Positions 4,421-19,404 of a DNA stretch of 64,000 nt are shown piece after piece. How positions within the stretch are numbered: the stretch's first letter is position 1; the number at the start of each line of letters is the position of its first letter. Source of the stretch: Deltaproteobacteria bacterium (lineage in GTDB: Bacteria; Desulfobacterota; Syntrophia; Syntrophales; UBA6807); assembly GCA_016935565.1 (NCBI GenBank), contig JAFGQS010000110.1, forward strand, positions 27,532 through 91,531, written 5' to 3'. Made by a program: the position numbers and the translations under genes. The notes under the pieces are model-generated. The model was not told where the DNA came from, did no database searches, and was given only the letters and a program-made list of their open reading frames with translations.

Positions 4421-5239
4421 TCAATAAGGTATCCGCGCTGAAATAACATTAAATCCCGCTCCTTCTTCACACTGAAAGTGAACATTATACTTTTTCAAAA
4501 GAGATACGGCATTGAATAAATCCCTGTCCACGTTTGTTTCATCATATGATTTACCGAAATTATCCCAGTTTTGTATTAATTCTTTCTCGTCATCATTGAG
4601 TGAATGCACACTGGTATTTTCAATTCTGACACATACATGAGTTGCATCTGATGTTGTTGAAACGATTAACACCTTTATCTCGCTATCTCTCATAGAATTC
4701 ATAGCATGCCTGATGAGTGTCGATAATGCGATTGAATAATCTGCAGGCGATCCCGTTACCTCTGGGATTCCATCGTCCAACAAAATATTCTTCTTTACCT
4801 GATGTTTAAAATCCAGATAAAAATCAAAGAACGCTAGTTCAGTCTTAATAAGTTCCGACAGGTTAATTTTTCGTACCGTTGTGTCACTGAGCCGGTAAAA
4901 TTTCCCAGCAACATCATTGAATAAATTAAAAAGTCTATCCGTTTCATTCGCTATCAGAACAACATCATCAATGATTTTCTTACAGTCTCGCAACATTTCT
5001 TCATTTAACTCAACGTATTCGCTTATGTTCTCAAGGTTTTTTGTCGCCCGTCGTTGGAGTAGTCTGGAACGGCCCATAATCCCGTTTAATGGATTGGCGA
5101 AGTTATGGAGAATGCCCGGTATAAGTTCTGTGGCAAAGCTAGCTTCAAATTCCTTCATCATTTCTTTAAAAGTATCTCGTTCTTCCGTGCCCCCCTGTCC
5201 TGACATGACCCAACTCCCCTCTTTTGCTATCCATTGCAA
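4421..5239 (-). CDS. Orphan cytoplasmic histidine-kinase-like protein with a degenerate ATP-binding G1 box
   Basis: 272 aa. H-box-like ILHNFANPLNGIMGRSRLL and N-box-like LIRHAMNSM are present. Where DxGxG is expected the sequence is VRIENTSV. A G2-like EEGAGFNV is present. No transmembrane, PAS or receiver domain is visible. Confidence 0.6.
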   Translation of the reverse strand: MQWIAKEGSWVMSGQGGTEERDTFKEMMKEFEASFATELIPGILHNFANPLNGIMGRSRLLQRRATKNLENISEYVELNEEMLRDCKKIIDDVVLIANETDRLFNLFNDVAGKFYRLSDTTVRKINLSELIKTELAFFDFYLDFKHQVKKNILLDDGIPEVTGSPADYSIALSTLIRHAMNSMRDSEIKVLIVSTTSDATHVCVRIENTSVHSLNDDEKELIQNWDNFGKSYDETNVDRDLFNAVSLLKKYNVHFQCEEGAGFNVISARIPY

Positions 5240-5652: not shown

Positions 5653-6177
5653 CTATAATAAAATAAATTTTGTAATATACACATCGGTTATGACGTCGTT
5701 TCCCATAAATCTATTCAGTTTCTCTTTAATTTCTTTTTTTAATCGCTCTCTGGCATTAAGTAAAGAGGAGAAATGTATTCTCAGTTCCTTTGATATTCTA
5801 TATATGATTTTTCGTAATTCGAACCTGTCCTGTGTCAACTTCGTCCCTGGCCTCAGCTCCAAGACAACGTTGCAGACAAGAACACCACTGCTCGTATCAT
5901 CTTTGACATAAATAATAAATTCCTTAAAATACTCGAATGAGGCTTGCGGTAACGTCACTTTCTGCACATGAATGTGCTCTTGCCTTGCTTTCCCTGATAT
6001 GAGATCCTCTGTACCCGAACGTACATCCCTATCCTCGCCGATGTCTGCACTACCAACGGTTGTTTTACCGAGACAACCAAAACCCACTAATATCATAATC
6101 ATCAGACACATCGGCATGACTCGTCCTGTGATATGAAAAACTGCTGTCGGTGAAAATCCAAAATGTCTTGACTTCAT
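5653..6177 (-). CDS. FliL-like paralogue, probable lipoprotein or membrane-anchored
   Basis: The C-terminal half (FKEFIIYVKDD...VVLELRPG...RERLKKEIKEKLNRFMGNDVITDVYITKFILL) parallels the bona fide FliL in this window (...LRDEIAMRVNSYLTKGRIKYVYFTEFVIQ). The N-terminus carries a hydrophobic segment ending in GFGC. Confidence 0.55.
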   Translation of the reverse strand: MKSRHFGFSPTAVFHITGRVMPMCLMIMILVGFGCLGKTTVGSADIGEDRDVRSGTEDLISGKARQEHIHVQKVTLPQASFEYFKEFIIYVKDDTSSGVLVCNVVLELRPGTKLTQDRFELRKIIYRISKELRIHFSSLLNARERLKKEIKEKLNRFMGNDVITDVYITKFILL

Positions 6178-6210: not shown

Positions 6211-6948
6211 TTATGATAAATCTCCGTTGTGATGTAAGTCTTTTAAAATACCCCTCAGTTTCAGAACTGCCTGAGAATGGATCTGACATATTCTTGACTC
6301 CGTCAATTCCAGGACCATACCGATTTCTCTGAGCGTTAGCTCTTCATAATAGTATAATGACAGGACCATTCTTTCTTTCTCAGGTAAAGCATCGATAGCA
6401 TTCTTGAGTTCCCTTTTTAATTCATTACTGGTTATAAGGGAAAATGGATCATTCTCATCAATCTTTTTCAGTACATCATAGTGGCCATACTTTTCACAAT
6501 AATTTGGTGGAAGATCATCACTGCTGAGAATGGAAATACTCTTTGCATCATCAAGCATTTTATAATAATCATCAAGCGATATACCAAGATAGTCGGAAAT
6601 CTCTTCAACCGTTGGCTGTCGTCCCAATTCTTTCTGTAATGATGTCAACGTATTCACCAGTTTCGCATCCTTGTTCCGAGCAGATCGGGACAGATTATCC
6701 CGCGATCTCAGTTCATCCAGTATAGCTCCACGAATTCTGAACCTGGCATACGTTTCAAATTTAACATTCCTCTCTTTATCGAACCGCTCCAATGCTGAAA
6801 TCAACCCTATGATACCCACATTAATCAGGTCTTCCTTATCAATGTGATCGGGTAATCTCATGGCAAACCTCTCCACAATATTCTTAACGAGAGGTGCATA
6901 CTTCATTATCTGTTGGTCGCGTTTTCGTTTATTTACCATCTCGATCAA
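6211..6948 (-). CDS. fliA: RNA polymerase sigma factor FliA (sigma28)
   Basis: 245 aa. Sigma70-family regions 2, 3 and 4 are recognisable (LINVGIIGLISALERFD, RERMVLSLYYYEELTLREIG). Position immediately after flhF-flhG. Confidence 0.9.
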   Translation of the reverse strand: MIEMVNKRKRDQQIMKYAPLVKNIVERFAMRLPDHIDKEDLINVGIIGLISALERFDKERNVKFETYARFRIRGAILDELRSRDNLSRSARNKDAKLVNTLTSLQKELGRQPTVEEISDYLGISLDDYYKMLDDAKSISILSSDDLPPNYCEKYGHYDVLKKIDENDPFSLITSNELKRELKNAIDALPEKERMVLSLYYYEELTLREIGMVLELTESRICQIHSQAVLKLRGILKDLHHNGDLS

Positions 6949-16196: not shown

Positions 16197-16697
16197 TTAT
16201 TGAATGACAAATTCGGTAAAATAGACGTATTTGATTCTCCCTTTTGTCAAATAGCTATTAACACGCATGGCAATTTCATCTCTCAGCTGCTGTTTTCCGC
16301 CGTATCCTACGATTTCCTTGTATTTCTTCGATGAAAGGAGGTCCAAGACATTGTCCACTATCTTTGGTTTCAACACGTCTAATTCCGTTATACAATCCTG
16401 GCTCGATAATTCCACCTGAACAACCGCTTTCAGGTATCGTTCGCCATTGCCATCCATCAGGTTTACAATCATAGTACCCATAGGCCAGACGGCACCTATT
16501 AAAGGCTTTTGTTCTTCGACCTTCTTTTGCGAATTTGCCATGTGGGATTGATAATATTTCCACCCTCCAAAACCGGTGGCTGTCAAGATCAAAAGCACAA
16601 AAACAATGACAATCCATTTAATAATTGAGCCTTTACCTTTCTTCTTTTTTGAATCTTCATTTTCTTCAAGATTCTCATTTTTTTCTTCGTCAGCCAT
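16197..16697 (-). CDS. fliL: Flagellar basal-body-associated protein FliL
   Basis: 166 aa, one transmembrane helix, and the typical C-terminus ...YVYFTEFVIQ. Confidence 0.85.
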   Translation of the reverse strand: MADEEKNENLEENEDSKKKKGKGSIIKWIVIVFVLLILTATGFGGWKYYQSHMANSQKKVEEQKPLIGAVWPMGTMIVNLMDGNGERYLKAVVQVELSSQDCITELDVLKPKIVDNVLDLLSSKKYKEIVGYGGKQQLRDEIAMRVNSYLTKGRIKYVYFTEFVIQ

Positions 16698-16706
16698 CTC
16701 TCCTCC

Positions 16707-17390
16707 TTACTCTTTCAATGTTAAAATAATCTCCACTCTCCTGTTGAAAGCCCTGTTTGAGTCGCTTATATTCGCGAAACGGGGCCGCGCATCAGCATAA
16801 CCTGCCGCAGAAAGTCTTTCCGGAGAAATACCGCCGTCATGAATGAAATATTTAATAAGAGCGACAGCCCGTGCCGTCGAAAGCTCCCAGTTTGATGCAA
16901 AGTATTCATTACTGATGGGAACATTGTCCGTATGTCCTTCCACTCGTATTTGACAATCAGCATTTTTGAGAATAGGACTAAGCTTCTCAAGAACTGTCTG
17001 GTCCTTCTTTCCAAAGTCGGCTTTCGCTGTTTCAAATAACACCTTTTCTCCCATAATAATGGACACGCCATTCTCTGTCACTGTCGCATCAATTCCCGTT
17101 ATCTCGTTTAAATGATCGGCCAACGCTTCCTTCTTTTTTTCATATGTGAGTATTTGATTACCCCTGGGGGAAATGAAAGGGGTAAAAGCCCTTACACCGC
17201 TTAACTCTCCCCACTGCAACATCCCGAAGGCATCCTGGACGGAGCGACACATTTCCTTAACCTTGCCTGAATCCGTATCTGCCATGGAAAGAACCAAAAC
17301 AAAGAATGTAAGGAGCAGGGTAACCATATCGTTGAAGGTTGTAAGCCATTTTCCGCCCCCTTCTTCCTTATTTTTTGCTTTTTTCTTCAC
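16707..17390 (-). CDS. motB: Stator protein MotB (canonical, Asp-containing)
   Basis: 227 aa. The transmembrane segment KWLTTFNDMVTLLLTFFVLVL contains the conserved proton-channel Asp. OmpA-like C-terminus (SNWELSTARAVALIKYF, NRRVEI). Confidence 0.85.
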   Translation of the reverse strand: MKKKAKNKEEGGGKWLTTFNDMVTLLLTFFVLVLSMADTDSGKVKEMCRSVQDAFGMLQWGELSGVRAFTPFISPRGNQILTYEKKKEALADHLNEITGIDATVTENGVSIIMGEKVLFETAKADFGKKDQTVLEKLSPILKNADCQIRVEGHTDNVPISNEYFASNWELSTARAVALIKYFIHDGGISPERLSAAGYADARPRFANISDSNRAFNRRVEIILTLKE

Positions 17391-17412
17391 GTGCTATCTC
17401 TCTATGCAAGCG

Positions 17413-18183
17413 TTATTCTTCCCCTCGATATATCTCGAAATAAAATTCAACCCTCCGGTTTGTTTGTCTCTCTTTCGTTGTATCGTTCGATGCTATGGGA
17501 TGATACTCGCTAAATCCAACAGCGGCCAATCTCATCGGAGGGATTTTCCCCTTATCGAGAAAATACCGGAGGACGTTGACCGCTCGTGCCGTCGACAATT
17601 CCCAATTTGACGGAAATTGTTCAGTTTGTATGGGAACGTTATCCGTATGTCCCTCAATCCGTACGGAAAATTTGTTTTTTTTCATTACGGCAATCATTTT
17701 ATCGAGGTATGGAATCGCATTTTTGTTAATGGTTGCGACACCCGACGGAAACATAACACTGCTTCCGAATGTCGCCTTAAACCCCGTGTCCGTCCGTTCC
17801 ACATGAGCAACATTACCTATTCCCGCATTTTCGATAAATTCTGTCAGTGACGACATCCCCATGACAACCGATTTTTTATCACTTCCGATCATATCAGGTG
17901 TATTGCGTAAGATGGTACCGCCACCACCGGTCTTGCGTCCCGCCGTATAGGCCATGAATTTTCTCAAAGCGGATGATGATGACAGTCCGTCCATCATTGT
18001 CTTTTCCGAAGAAACCGAAAAACCCCGAATGAAGTTTGTCATCTTATTCTCTTCAACGGTTGAATAGGATACGAGCATGGCAAAAAAAGCGACTAGAATA
18101 AGAGCAAGAGAGCAATAGATCACCTCCCAACTGGCTACCGGTGCCCCACCTCCACCTTTATCCTTTTTATATTCCTCATTCAT
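17413..18183 (-). CDS. MotB-like OmpA-domain protein lacking the conserved channel Asp
   Basis: 256 aa. The transmembrane segment SWEVIYCSLALILVAFFAML aligns residue-for-residue with W-x3-Y-x-D-x8-FF of MotB, but has Ser at the Asp position. The OmpA-like C-terminus is intact (SNWELSTARAVNVLRYF, NRRVEF). Confidence 0.7.
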   Translation of the reverse strand: MNEEYKKDKGGGGAPVASWEVIYCSLALILVAFFAMLVSYSTVEENKMTNFIRGFSVSSEKTMMDGLSSSSALRKFMAYTAGRKTGGGGTILRNTPDMIGSDKKSVVMGMSSLTEFIENAGIGNVAHVERTDTGFKATFGSSVMFPSGVATINKNAIPYLDKMIAVMKKNKFSVRIEGHTDNVPIQTEQFPSNWELSTARAVNVLRYFLDKGKIPPMRLAAVGFSEYHPIASNDTTKERQTNRRVEFYFEIYRGEE

Positions 18184-18945
18184 TTAGAACACCGACTTTC
18201 TCTCATTGGGCGATATAAATGAATGAAGTTTTTGTTCTAATATTCTCGGATTATCCCCCGACTGAACTGATAAAATTCCACTAATCAACAATTGCTTCAT
18301 CATGAGTTCATCGGCACTTCGCGTTTTCAGCTTGCCTGCGATGGGCAGAAAGATCAGATTTGCCAGAATAACACCGTAAAAGGTGGTAATAAGAGCGACC
18401 GCCATGGCAGGCCCGATGGAACTGGGATCATCCATTTGCATCAGCATCTTTACCAATCCGATTAATGTTCCCATCATACCCATGGCAGGTGCAAAATTCC
18501 CCATAGTTGTGAATATCTCCGCTCCCAGTCTGTGCCTCTCCTCAACGAACTCAAGTTCCGTATAGAGTATCTTGGAAAGAGCTGCCGGCTCGATGCCGTC
18601 TATCATCAATCTGATACCTTTCGAAAAAAAGGCATCATCAACATTATCTACTTGTTTCTCCAGTGCCAGTATCCCCTCACGCCGCGCTGTCTTCGACATT
18701 TCGACCAGCATCTCTATTGCTTCACCAACTTTCAGTTCTTTATGAAACAGTACATTCTTCGCTATTCTAATCATACCGAGCATATCTGAGATCGGATAGT
18801 TGATAAGCACGGCACCAAACGTTCCGCCTACGACAATAAATACTGAAGGAATATTGATAAACCATGAGAGGCCGCCTCCCATACTCATTGCACCGATTAC
18901 GAGACCGAACCCGCTTAATATTCCTGCAATTGTAGCCAGATCCAT
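18184..18945 (-). CDS. motA: Stator protein MotA
   Basis: MDLATIAGILSGFGLVIGA... is a typical MotA/TolQ/ExbB channel protein. The ORF track starts at GTG 18957. I prefer ATG 18945, which is preceded by GGGGTGGTGGA. Confidence 0.9.
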   Translation of the reverse strand: MDLATIAGILSGFGLVIGAMSMGGGLSWFINIPSVFIVVGGTFGAVLINYPISDMLGMIRIAKNVLFHKELKVGEAIEMLVEMSKTARREGILALEKQVDNVDDAFFSKGIRLMIDGIEPAALSKILYTELEFVEERHRLGAEIFTTMGNFAPAMGMMGTLIGLVKMLMQMDDPSSIGPAMAVALITTFYGVILANLIFLPIAGKLKTRSADELMMKQLLISGILSVQSGDNPRILEQKLHSFISPNERKSVF

Positions 18946-18993
18946 TGAATCCACCACCCCGTCGTTGTTTTAAAGATTGTCATTTCTCAAATG

Positions 18994-19009
18994 AGCAAAT
19001 ACCGTACCA
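18994..19009 (-). promoter_or_regulatory. Sigma54 promoter candidate for the motA operon
   Basis: The reverse complement reads TGGTACGGTATTTGCT, with exact GG-N10-GC spacing. It lies about 40-50 nt upstream of the motA start. Confidence 0.55.
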
Positions 19010-19292
19010 GAAGCATCACAGATAAAATATCAGACATTTACATGTGATATCGGTCAGTTAAGAGAATGAAGGAAAACTGTTTCCTTTGAAGAAAGGGATT
19101 TTTTGACAAATCGTCATTAATTTGACGTCCGTTCGACCTGCTTGTCGGGGTTATGTCTGGTCCTGCTGTATCAAGGACGTTTCGATAACTACATGCAGTA
19201 AAGTCCGGACTAAAGAACTGCCGTGCTTCAGTCAGAAGATAAACATAGGATGATCCAGAATCCGCACAAACGTTGAGCGGTAAAGACTAATG

Positions 19293-19337
19293 ACAAAAGT
19301 ATAAGGCTGGACACCTGAGAAGACTCAGTGTCCAGCC
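19293..19337 (-). terminator. Rho-independent terminator candidate downstream of flgE
   Basis: Hairpin GGCTGGACACCTGAG / CTCAG-TGTCCAGCC: 14 bp with one bulge and a 4-nt loop. On the minus strand it is followed by TTATACTTTTG. Confidence 0.5.
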
Positions 19338-19404
19338 TTCATGATCAATAAATATTTTCCATGTTAATCTAACGGTTGACGGCCGAAAGCTGATCGCTCT
19401 CCGA

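What the first reader, a model, noticed from the sequence alone, without database searches (positions are those of the whole stretch)
16707..18183. One MotA followed by two MotB-like genes, the first lacking the essential channel Asp
**Alignment to the MotB plug/transmembrane consensus W-x3-Y-x-D-x8-FF.**
- The distal gene reads KWLTTFNDMVTLLLTFF, with the Asp present.
- The gene immediately after motA reads SWEVIYCSLALILVAFF, with Ser in place of Asp.

Both genes keep an intact OmpA-like peptidoglycan-binding domain (NWELSTARA...NRRVE).

**Interpretation.** An Asp-less MotB cannot conduct ions in the canonical mechanism. It could instead be an inactive stator subunit forming heteromers, a stator anchor or regulator (MotC/MotY-like role), or a brake.
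Basis: partly seen in the sequence, partly recalled or inferred. Interest (0 to 1): 0.55.

Follow-up and report, generated by a model that had tools for sequence, protein, structure and literature searches.

The report
Ion-blind MotB paralogue inside flagellar stator operon
Between the flagellar motor genes motA and motB lies a second, strongly conserved MotB copy that has lost the whole ion-binding stripe of its membrane helix; the same three-gene set recurs across sulfate-reducing and syntrophic bacteria, so it offers a natural test of whether a stator needs two ion-binding sites.

Summary
On the minus strand, motA (18184-18957) is followed by motB' (17413-18183) and then motB (16707-17390), fliL, fliM and fliN.

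- **Sequence.** HMMER aligns MotB' Ser25 with the channel Asp of solved MotB structures. MotB keeps the Asp (D21). Both keep an intact OmpA-like peptidoglycan-binding domain.
- **Not an accident.** More than 100 MotB' homologues (42-87% identity) have a nearly invariant membrane helix and never carry Asp or Glu at that position.
- **Scale.** An exhaustive profile search found at least 42 Asp-less clusters at 50% identity. All of them also lack the Ser/Thr one helical turn above the Asp position. All keep the Phe of the MotB dimer core.
- **Gene order.** Of the 32 genome loci, 29 reach past motB' and all have motA-motB'(no Asp)-motB(Asp)-fliL. All six divergent metagenome loci I checked do too.
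- **Origin.** In a rough tree the Asp-less proteins form essentially one clade, separate from their Asp-bearing partners. One locus has a middle copy that still carries Asp.

My best reading is that MotB' is a selected, non-conducting stator B subunit that still sits inside the MotA ring. It most likely pairs with MotB to give a stator with one ion path. The composition of the complex is untested. I found no description in the papers searched. I rate it a new variant of a known kind.

The parts
19294..19337 (-). Terminator-like hairpin with a U-rich tail after flgE. It suggests that motA starts a separate transcription unit or an attenuated one.
   Evidence: RNA fold -27.6 kcal/mol, z = -5.3 against shuffles. 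Sequence read. The simple terminator scan did not list it. No ORF of 60 aa or more, and no flbD, lies between flgE and motA.
18184..18957 (-). motA: stator A subunit of the PomA/MotP-like short type. It is the only motA in the 64 kb window.
   Evidence: Pfam MotA_ExbB 1.4e-30. NCBIfam PomA 280 bits and MotP 270 bits, both below the equivalog cut-offs. PDB matches: 1.7e-63 to MotA of 8ucs, 1.9e-63 to C. sporogenes MotA (6ysf), 3e-62 to Vibrio PomA. tblastn finds no second copy in the window.
17413..18183 (-). motB': Asp-less MotB paralogue, 256 aa. Its start codon abuts the motA stop codon.
   Evidence: NCBIfam best hit is MotD at 146 bits against a cut-off of 283, so no curated family claims it. 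More than 100 homologues at 42-87% identity.
18067..18132 (-). MotB' membrane helix (residues 18-39, SWEVIYCSLALILVAFFAMLVS). Ser25 (codon 18109-18111) occupies the Asp position.
   Evidence: AF2 helix 18-39. HMMER alignment to 6ysf. Nearly every helix position is conserved in 117 homologues.
17455..17754 (-). MotB' OmpA-like peptidoglycan-binding domain, with GHTDN, NWELSTARA and NRRVE.
   Evidence: Pfam OmpA 3.5e-18, residues 144-243. D181, N193, L196, S197, R200 and N242-R244 are invariant in 47 homologues. AF2 pLDDT is mostly above 90 in this region. Best Foldseek matches are the MotS, DVU_2228, H. pylori MotB and PomB periplasmic domains.
16707..17390 (-). motB: canonical stator B subunit, 227 aa, GTG start. 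Membrane helix is KWLTTFNDMVTLLLTFF with Asp21 (codon 17328-17330).
   Evidence: Pfam MotB_plug 8.8e-17 and OmpA 7e-16. Alignment to 6ysf and PomB. W-L-x-T-F-N-D is invariant in 115 homologues.
16197..16697 (-). fliL: stator-associated protein and the next gene in the conserved block, followed by fliM and fliN.
   Evidence: Pfam FliL 9.8e-22. The same gene order is seen in 26 loci from the genome scan.

Best explanation
MotB' is a functional, selected paralogue of the flagellar stator B subunit that has lost ion binding but kept everything else.

**What the sequence shows.**
- It keeps a MotB-type membrane helix, a plug-like segment and a peptidoglycan-binding domain.
- The helix has lost the whole ion-conducting stripe: Thr at -3, the Asp, and Thr/Ser at +3.
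- The gene is retained between motA and an Asp-bearing motB across a wide set of Desulfobacterota-type lineages.
- It arose by tandem duplication of motB.

**What I infer.**
- MotB' still inserts into the centre of the MotA pentamer as one of the two axle helices and anchors the unit to the cell wall.
- The most likely complex is MotA5-MotB-MotB', a stator with one ion path instead of two.
- In such a unit the neutral Ser (or Ala or Gly) side would pass the MotA ring without needing protonation. Only every second 36-degree step would be ion-driven. The other stators geared to the same rotor would carry the ring through the passive half-steps.
- About 5 rather than 10 ions would then be used per turn of the MotA ring.
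For: **Shown.**
1. Ser25 aligns to the Asp, and the position is never D or E in 117 homologues or in 42 Asp-less cluster representatives.
2. The MotB' helix is as conserved as that of the partner MotB. Entropy is below about 0.6 bit at most of the 23 positions in both. That fits a helix buried in a protein complex, not a simple lipid anchor.
3. The Phe that forms the MotB-MotB coiled-coil core (E. coli F41) is invariant in 82 Asp-bearing and 42 Asp-less representatives.
4. The plug-like motif S-x-[IV]-E-x-x-K-x-x-x-F is conserved, and the Pfam MotB_plug hit is just above its cut-off.
5. The peptidoglycan-binding residues are invariant, and the predicted fold matches stator periplasmic domains.
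6. The gene order motA-motB'-motB-fliL holds in all 29 genome loci that reach past motB' and in six divergent types with GC 0.41-0.70. Starts and stops abut or overlap.
7. In the neighbour-joining tree, all 44 Asp-less sequences fall in one clade of 46, separate from the partner clade. One locus, L040, has a middle copy that still carries Asp.

**Inferred.** Membership of the MotA complex, the heterodimer and the stepping scheme. The scheme builds on the two-half-channel, 36-degree model summarised in PMC12890895.
Against: - No tool here could model or measure the complex. AF2 was single-chain only, and it gave low confidence for residues 41-91, which include the plug region.
- From my own recollection (Zhou et al. 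1998, not checked here), E. coli MotB Asp32 mutants are dominant-negative. That may mean stators with one Asp do not work.
- Coiled-coil core positions do not discriminate hetero- from homodimers. MotB has N-V-L-F-L and MotB' has C-V/A-V-F-V. The invariant Asn in the partner could favour Asn-Asn homodimers.
- Covariation between paired MotB' and MotB helices in 29 loci was uninformative: there is too little variation and it is confounded by phylogeny.
- All the loci found are from uncultured genomes, and no expression or phenotype data exist.
Confidence: 0.45

Rival explanations
1. MotB' forms only MotB'2 homodimers inside MotA5. These units dock at the rotor and the cell wall but conduct no ions. 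They could act as a brake or placeholder that tunes how many active stators engage. Alternatively, because the axle has no charge, they could act as free-wheeling idler units that support the rotor.
For: - It shares the same evidence for a MotB-like buried helix, plug and wall anchor.
- MotB' core residues C, V/A, V, F, V could pack as a tight homodimer.
- The invariant Asn at the core position of the partner MotB would favour MotB-MotB pairing.
- From my own recollection, the dominance of E. coli Asp32 mutants shows that Asp-less units can occupy motor sites.
Against: - A constitutive inhibitor co-translated in the same operon as its target, and kept across lineages spanning GC 0.41-0.70, is costly. 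It is also unusual compared with known brakes, which are separately regulated.
- Nothing prevents mixed dimers from forming, given the shared Phe core.
- No regulatory element separates motB' from motA or motB.
Confidence: 0.27
2. MotB' does not enter the MotA ring. It is a MotA-independent, wall-anchored scaffold comparable in role to MotY, the T-ring or PflB, or a partner of the FliL ring, that positions or stabilises the true MotA5MotB2 stators.
For: It has an intact OmpA-like domain. It sits next to fliL in every locus. Many complex motors use OmpA-domain accessory proteins (general knowledge).
Against: - The membrane helix keeps the MotB-specific features: Trp at the cytoplasmic edge, the invariant Phe of the dimer core, and the S-Y-S helix end followed by a plug-like motif. 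Its conservation equals that of the true MotB.
- As I recall, MotY has a signal peptide and no membrane helix.
- The phylogeny places MotB' inside the MotB family as a tandem duplicate, and one relative still carries Asp.
Confidence: 0.12
3. MotB' is a decaying duplicate: a pseudo-functional remnant with no role of its own.
For: It has lost the residue essential for the canonical function.
Against: - Intact ORFs occur in more than 100 homologues with 42-87% identity, and the helix and peptidoglycan-binding motif are nearly invariant.
- There are at least 42 clusters at 50% identity.
- The position between motA and motB is retained in every locus examined.
Confidence: 0.03
4. MotB' still conducts ions, using another residue (the Glu of W-E, or the Cys-Ser pair) or a different coupling ion.
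For: Glu20 lies five residues before the Asp position, and the Tyr-Cys-Ser triplet is conserved in the close family.
Against: - Glu20 is Q in 21 of 117 close homologues. Among the 42 wider representatives that position is Q 18, E 12, L 2, V 2, D 1, and several divergent types lack the W-E motif altogether.
- The Asp position itself is S, A, G, N or P.
- No D or E occurs at helix positions 2-22 in any Asp-less representative, and the T/S at +3 is lost in 42 of 42.
Confidence: 0.03

Closest known systems
Canonical flagellar stator B subunits (MotB, PomB, MotS; structures 6ysf, 6ysl, 6ykm, 8brd)
   Same: The architecture is the same: short basic N-terminus, one membrane helix with W...FF, a plug-like segment, a variable linker and an OmpA-like peptidoglycan-binding domain. 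The gene lies directly downstream of motA. Full-length E-value to 6ysf MotB is 8.6e-32. The invariant Phe of the dimer core is kept.
   Different: The invariant channel Asp is replaced by Ser, Ala, Gly, Asn or Pro, and the Thr/Ser at -3 and +3 are replaced by hydrophobic residues. It scores below every NCBIfam MotB, MotD or MotS cut-off. It is always accompanied by a second, Asp-bearing motB.
Aquifex aeolicus motA/motB1/motB2 operon (Takekawa et al. 2015, PMC4525482)
   Same: One motA is followed by two tandem motB genes in one operon. That paper calls this arrangement unusual.
   Different: In Aquifex the membrane and N-terminal regions are 97% identical, and each supports rotation in chimeras. 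The periplasmic parts differ (23% identity). Here the pattern is the reverse: the periplasmic domains are alike (41% identity over 121 aa) and the membrane helices have diverged, with the Asp lost. Locus L040 resembles the Aquifex state.
Laboratory MotB Asp32 substitutions in E. coli (from memory: Zhou et al. 1998)
   Same: A neutral residue sits at the ion-binding position of an otherwise intact MotB.
   Different: Those mutants are non-functional and dominant-negative in a system with a single motB. Here the neutral variant is natural, ancient, co-encoded with a wild-type-like partner and under purifying selection.
5:2 motors with two B-type paralogues per A subunit: Myxococcus AglR/AglQ/AglS, and exbB-exbD1-exbD2 operons
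   Same: One MotA/ExbB-type gene is followed by two MotB/ExbD-type paralogues. Whether AglQ and AglS form hetero- or homodimers is an open question (Rieu et al. 2022, PMC9389320).
   Different: Those proteins have no OmpA-like domain and are not flagellar. I did not check whether either paralogue lacks the Asp.
OmpA-domain motor accessories (MotY/T-ring; PflB-type scaffolds)
   Same: They contain or work with a wall-binding domain and support the stators.
   Different: As I recall, MotY is a secreted periplasmic protein without a MotB-type membrane helix or plug. MotB' is a clear MotB duplicate.

Membership tests
Flagellar stator B subunit (MotB/PomB/MotS) | Single N-terminal membrane helix with Trp at the cytoplasmic edge and the conserved F-F / Phe dimer core | tested here: met
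   AF2 helix at residues 18-39. W19 is nearly invariant and F34 invariant. The Phe at helix index 15 is invariant in 42 Asp-less and 82 Asp-bearing representatives.
Flagellar stator B subunit (MotB/PomB/MotS) | Invariant ion-binding Asp in the membrane helix (E. coli D32) | tested here: not met
   Ser25 aligns to the Asp of 6ysf MotB. The position is S 109, A 7, C 1 in 117 homologues. No acidic residue occurs anywhere in the helix.
Flagellar stator B subunit (MotB/PomB/MotS) | Plug segment directly after the helix (Pfam MotB_plug) | tested here: inconclusive
   Pfam MotB_plug scores 25.0 bits against a cut-off of 24. Most close homologues have no precomputed PF13677 hit. The motif S-x-[IV]-E-x-x-K-x-x-x-F is conserved. 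AF2 gives low confidence for residues 41-91.
Flagellar stator B subunit (MotB/PomB/MotS) | C-terminal OmpA-like peptidoglycan-binding domain with D...N-x-x-L-S-x-x-R-A and NRR motifs | tested here: met
   Pfam OmpA 3.5e-18. The motif residues are invariant. Foldseek best hits are the MotS, PomB and MotB periplasmic domains, E about 1e-15 to 1e-11.
Flagellar stator B subunit (MotB/PomB/MotS) | Encoded directly downstream of motA in a flagellar operon | tested here: met
   The ATG abuts the motA stop. The same arrangement holds in all 32 related genome loci and in six divergent loci.
Flagellar stator B subunit (MotB/PomB/MotS) | Assembles as the dimeric axle inside a MotA pentamer and couples ion flow to rotation | not testable with these tools
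   Only single-chain AF2 was available. This needs a multimer prediction, co-purification or cryo-EM.
Flagellar stator B subunit (MotB/PomB/MotS) | Reaches a curated NCBIfam equivalog score (MotB, MotD, MotS or PomB) | tested here: not met
   The best hit is MotD at 145.9 bits against a cut-off of 283, and all others are also below their cut-offs. The canonical partner MotB also falls below cut-offs (171.6 against 259), so this reflects lineage divergence as well.
Aquifex-type motA/motB1/motB2 dual-B stator | One motA followed by two tandem motB genes | tested here: met
   The paper is read.
Aquifex-type motA/motB1/motB2 dual-B stator | Both B subunits have near-identical, functional membrane regions | tested here: not met
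   BLASTP aligns the two window proteins only over the OmpA domain. The helices differ at most positions, and the Asp is lost in MotB'.
MotY / T-ring type OmpA-domain accessory | Secreted periplasmic protein with an N-terminal MotY-specific domain and no MotB-type membrane helix (feature recalled from memory) | tested here: not met
   MotB' has a MotB-type helix and no other domain. It is a phylogenetic sister of MotBs.

The most novel reading that the evidence does not exclude
The flagellar stators of these bacteria are obligate MotA5-MotB-MotB' heterocomplexes with a single ion-binding Asp. This would be a natural 'single-acting' 5:2 motor. It would show that the alternating two-site cycle is not required for torque generation, and it would halve the ion cost per turn of the MotA ring. 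That saving might be an adaptation of energy-limited sulfate reducers and syntrophs.
Probability: 0.35. Interest if true: 0.85.

Novelty: new variant of a known kind. Interest (0 to 1): 0.66.

Why it matters
**Mechanism.** The current model of the MotA5MotB2 stator has two Asp residues taking turns, each driving alternate 36-degree steps. A natural B subunit that has lost the Asp and the whole polar stripe, yet keeps a perfectly conserved helix, is a ready-made experiment. It is always co-encoded with motA and an Asp-bearing motB.
- If the two B subunits share one MotA ring, one ion site is enough.
- If they do not, these bacteria build a class of non-conducting stator-like units whose role (brake, idler or scaffold) is unknown.

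**Annotation and comparative work.**
- Public sources label these genes either 'MotB' or 'OmpA family protein'.
- One comparative study took the gene directly downstream of motA as the B subunit. In these lineages that rule would pick the ion-blind copy.

Tried and rejected
1. **Glu of 'SWEV' as a replacement acid.** Rejected: it is Q in 21 of 117 close homologues and mostly Q (18 of 42) in the wider family.
2. **Chance or pseudogene.** Rejected by the conservation and synteny data.
3. **Covariation between paired MotB' and MotB helices in 29 loci, to detect direct contact.** Uninformative. The only strong signals (for example MotB' W-Q with MotB W-L-L) track clades.
4. **AF2 of MotB'.** It confirms the helix and the OmpA-like domain but gives low confidence for the plug and linker. 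It cannot address the complex.
5. **Literature.** Nine full-text searches found no paper describing an Asp-less MotB paralogue. I also recalled from memory a Desulfovibrio vulgaris gene set, DVU0048-0050 (motB / OmpA-family / motA). A search for those locus tags found nothing, so this remains an untested lead.
6. **Coupling ion from MotA.** The Thr residues shared with PomA are also present in C. sporogenes MotA, so they are not diagnostic.
7. **Naming cultured hosts.** All 32 genome hits are metagenome-assembled genomes. The profile search with divergent members again returned only MAG or metagenome names.
Full report
**1. What is in the window.**

The region lies in a large flagellar locus on the minus strand. 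The gene order is fliK, flgD, flgE, motA, motB', motB, fliL, fliM, fliN, fliO/P/Q/R, flhB, flhA, flhF, flhG, fliA.
- A strong hairpin with a U-rich tail follows flgE at 19294-19337 (-27.6 kcal/mol, z = -5.3).
- motA (18184-18957) is the only motA in the 64 kb window.
- motB' (17413-18183) starts with an ATG that abuts the motA stop codon.
- motB (16707-17390) follows after 22 nt.

Pfam hits:
- MotA: MotA_ExbB.
- MotB': OmpA at 3.5e-18, with only a marginal MotB_plug hit (25.0 bits against a cut-off of 24).
- MotB: MotB_plug at 8.8e-17 and OmpA.

No NCBIfam MotB, MotD, MotS or PomB model reaches its cut-off for MotB'. The best is 146 bits against 283.

**2.

- phmmer aligns MotB' over its full length to the C. 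sporogenes MotB of the solved stator 6ysf (E = 8.6e-32). That alignment places Ser25 on the channel Asp.
- The downstream MotB has Asp21 at that position.
- The two window proteins are alignable only over the OmpA-like domain: 41% identity over 121 residues.
The correct form is D-x7-FF.

**3. It is a conserved family, not an accident.**

- A search of 5.8 billion proteins gave more than 100 homologues at 42-87% identity. Where a source names them, they come from Deltaproteobacteria, Desulfobacterales, Syntrophales or Thermodesulfobacteriota MAGs.
- In 117 of these the helix reads W-[EQ]-x-I-Y-C-S-L-x-L-I-L-V-A-[LF]-F-A-M-L-V-S-Y-S.
- The Asp position is S 109, A 7, C 1.
- Position by position, the MotB' helix is as conserved as the helix of 115 partner-type MotBs, which read W-L-x-T-F-N-D-M-V-T-L-L-L-T-F-F.
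- The polar residues T, N, D, T, T of MotB correspond to I, C, S, L, A in MotB'.

**4. The family is broad.**

An exhaustive HMMER search of 1.84 billion cluster representatives, using a 47-sequence profile, returned 5,574 proteins at E of 1e-30 or better. I classified those of the best 150 in which the helix could be aligned:
- 82 have Asp.
- 42 lack it: S 31, A 5, G 4, N 1, P 1.

The loss is coherent across the stripe:

| Helix feature | Asp-bearing (82) | Asp-less (42) |
|---|---|---|
| Thr/Ser at -3 | 79 | 6 |
| Thr/Ser at +3 | 78 | 0 |
| D or E at helix positions 2-22, apart from the channel Asp | not counted | 0 |
| Phe at the E. coli F41 position | 82 | 42 |

E. coli F41 is a core 'd' position of the MotB-MotB coiled coil, according to the coiled-coil engineering preprint read.

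**5. The three-gene arrangement is constant.**

- A scan of 185,579 species genomes with the MotB'-specific peptide LILVA[LF]FA[ML]L found 32 loci, all MAGs.
- All 29 loci that extend past motB' carry an Asp-bearing motB next to it. Twenty-six of them also reach fliN. In those that also reach upstream, the order is flgD-flgE-motA-motB'-motB-fliL-fliM-fliN.
- In each, MotB' has no Asp and MotB has F-N-D.
- Gene ends typically abut or overlap, which fits translational coupling.
- Six divergent Asp-less types from the exhaustive search (P0257, P0265, P0287, P0349, P0301, P0294) come from contigs with GC 0.41-0.70. All sit in motA-motB'-motB(Asp)-fliL-fliM.
- Two further 'F-N-D' MotBs have an OmpA-domain gene directly upstream, cut by the end of the contig.

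**6. Origin.**

I built a neighbour-joining tree of 135 sequences. It is rough: midpoint-rooted, with no support values.
- All 44 Asp-less sequences fall in one clade of 46.
- The partner MotBs form a separate clade that contains no Asp-less member.
- Of the two Asp-bearing sequences in the Asp-less clade, one (P0324) is the middle gene of a triad and still reads W-L-T-T-Y-C-D-L-M-T.
- The other (P0285) is a single motB followed by two fliL genes.

This fits a tandem duplication of motB, then loss of the ion stripe in the copy nearest motA, then long co-retention of both.

**7. Structure.**

- AF2 with the family alignment gave mean pLDDT 75.
- It predicts a membrane helix at 18-39, a low-confidence stretch at 41-91, and a confident long helix plus OmpA-like domain at 96-251.
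- The best Foldseek PDB matches are periplasmic domains of stator B subunits: B. subtilis MotS, D. vulgaris DVU_2228, H. pylori MotB and Vibrio PomB.
- The peptidoglycan-binding residues are invariant in the family.

**8. Interpretation.**

MotB' retains every MotB feature except the ability to bind an ion. A helix in which nearly every position is fixed, including the dimer-core Phe, points to a helix buried in a protein complex. The obvious complex is the MotA pentamer encoded immediately upstream.

Two compositions are possible:
- **A MotB/MotB' heterodimer (one ion path).** I favour this. MotB' is co-translated between its two putative partners. The arrangement has been stable across deep divergence. 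A neutral side chain needs no protonation to pass the MotA ring. In a motor with many stators geared to one rotor, the other units could carry a single-site stator through its unpowered half-steps.
- **A MotB'2 homodimer (no ion path).** This would be a brake, an idler or a placeholder.

All of this is inference from the published 36-degree, two-half-channel model. As I recall, Asp32 mutants are dominant-negative in E. coli, and that is a caution against the heterodimer. A MotA-independent scaffold role is less likely, and decay is excluded.

**9. Comparison with what is known.**

- The nearest precedent is the Aquifex aeolicus motA/motB1/motB2 operon. There the two membrane regions are 97% identical and both work in chimeras, while the periplasmic domains differ. 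That is the mirror image of the present case.
- Two-paralogue B subunits also occur in the Myxococcus AglRQS motor, where the stoichiometry is likewise unknown.
- Nine full-text searches found no description of an Asp-less MotB paralogue.
- A recent survey of MotAB evolution assigned B subunits by their position downstream of motA and does not mention this paralogue.
- The search covers open-access papers and preprints only, so prior description elsewhere cannot be excluded.

**10. Verdict.**

The non-conducting status is well supported by sequence, but the specific role is unresolved.
- I rate it a new variant of a known kind, of real interest to people working on the mechanism of 5:2 rotary motors.

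Noticed in passing
window 5653-6177 (-): A second FliL paralogue (Pfam FliL 2.9e-10, 174 aa) lies just downstream of the sigma factor gene fliA (6211-6948). It is additional to the fliL next to motB. Locus L041 likewise has two tandem fliL genes after its single motB.
   Followed up: partly
window 18958-19404 (-): The 447-nt gap between flgE and motA has a strong terminator-like hairpin (19294-19337). It has no flbD ORF, although the related locus L033 carries FlbD at this position. The promoter of the motA operon was not identified. The sigma-70 scan gave nothing above background.
   Followed up: partly
L040 1008-1793 (GCA_030667075.1): A triad in which the middle MotB still has the Asp and the Thr at +3 (AWLTTYCDLMTLMLAFF), yet it groups with the Asp-less clade. 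It is a likely intermediate or ancestral state, resembling the Aquifex motB1/motB2 situation.
   Followed up: partly
window 17328-17345 (-) and partner MotBs in L002-L032: The Asp-bearing partner MotBs have an invariant Asn directly before the Asp (F-N-D, 115 of 115). Other Asp-bearing MotBs mostly have G, S or A there. That position is a coiled-coil core position in E. coli MotB (A31). Its meaning for homo- versus heterodimer pairing is unexplained.
   Followed up: no
L019, L024, L028: Contigs carrying the Desulfobacterota-type triad are labelled 'Pseudomonadota bacterium' or 'Bacteroidota bacterium' in their records. This probably reflects binning or taxonomy-label artefacts rather than true hosts.
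   Followed up: no
P0265, P0271, P0291, P0308, P0323 (e.g. L035 6001-6735): A distinct Asp-less subgroup also lacks the Trp at the cytoplasmic edge (S-F-T-V-L-F-T-S-L-S-V-I-L-L-A-F-F). It branches at the base of the Asp-less clade in the rough tree. The data do not resolve whether it lost the Asp independently.
   Followed up: partly
window 4421-5239 (-): An ORF with a HisKA domain (Pfam 1.8e-07) lies at the edge of the flagellar locus. No partner gene or role was examined.
   Followed up: no
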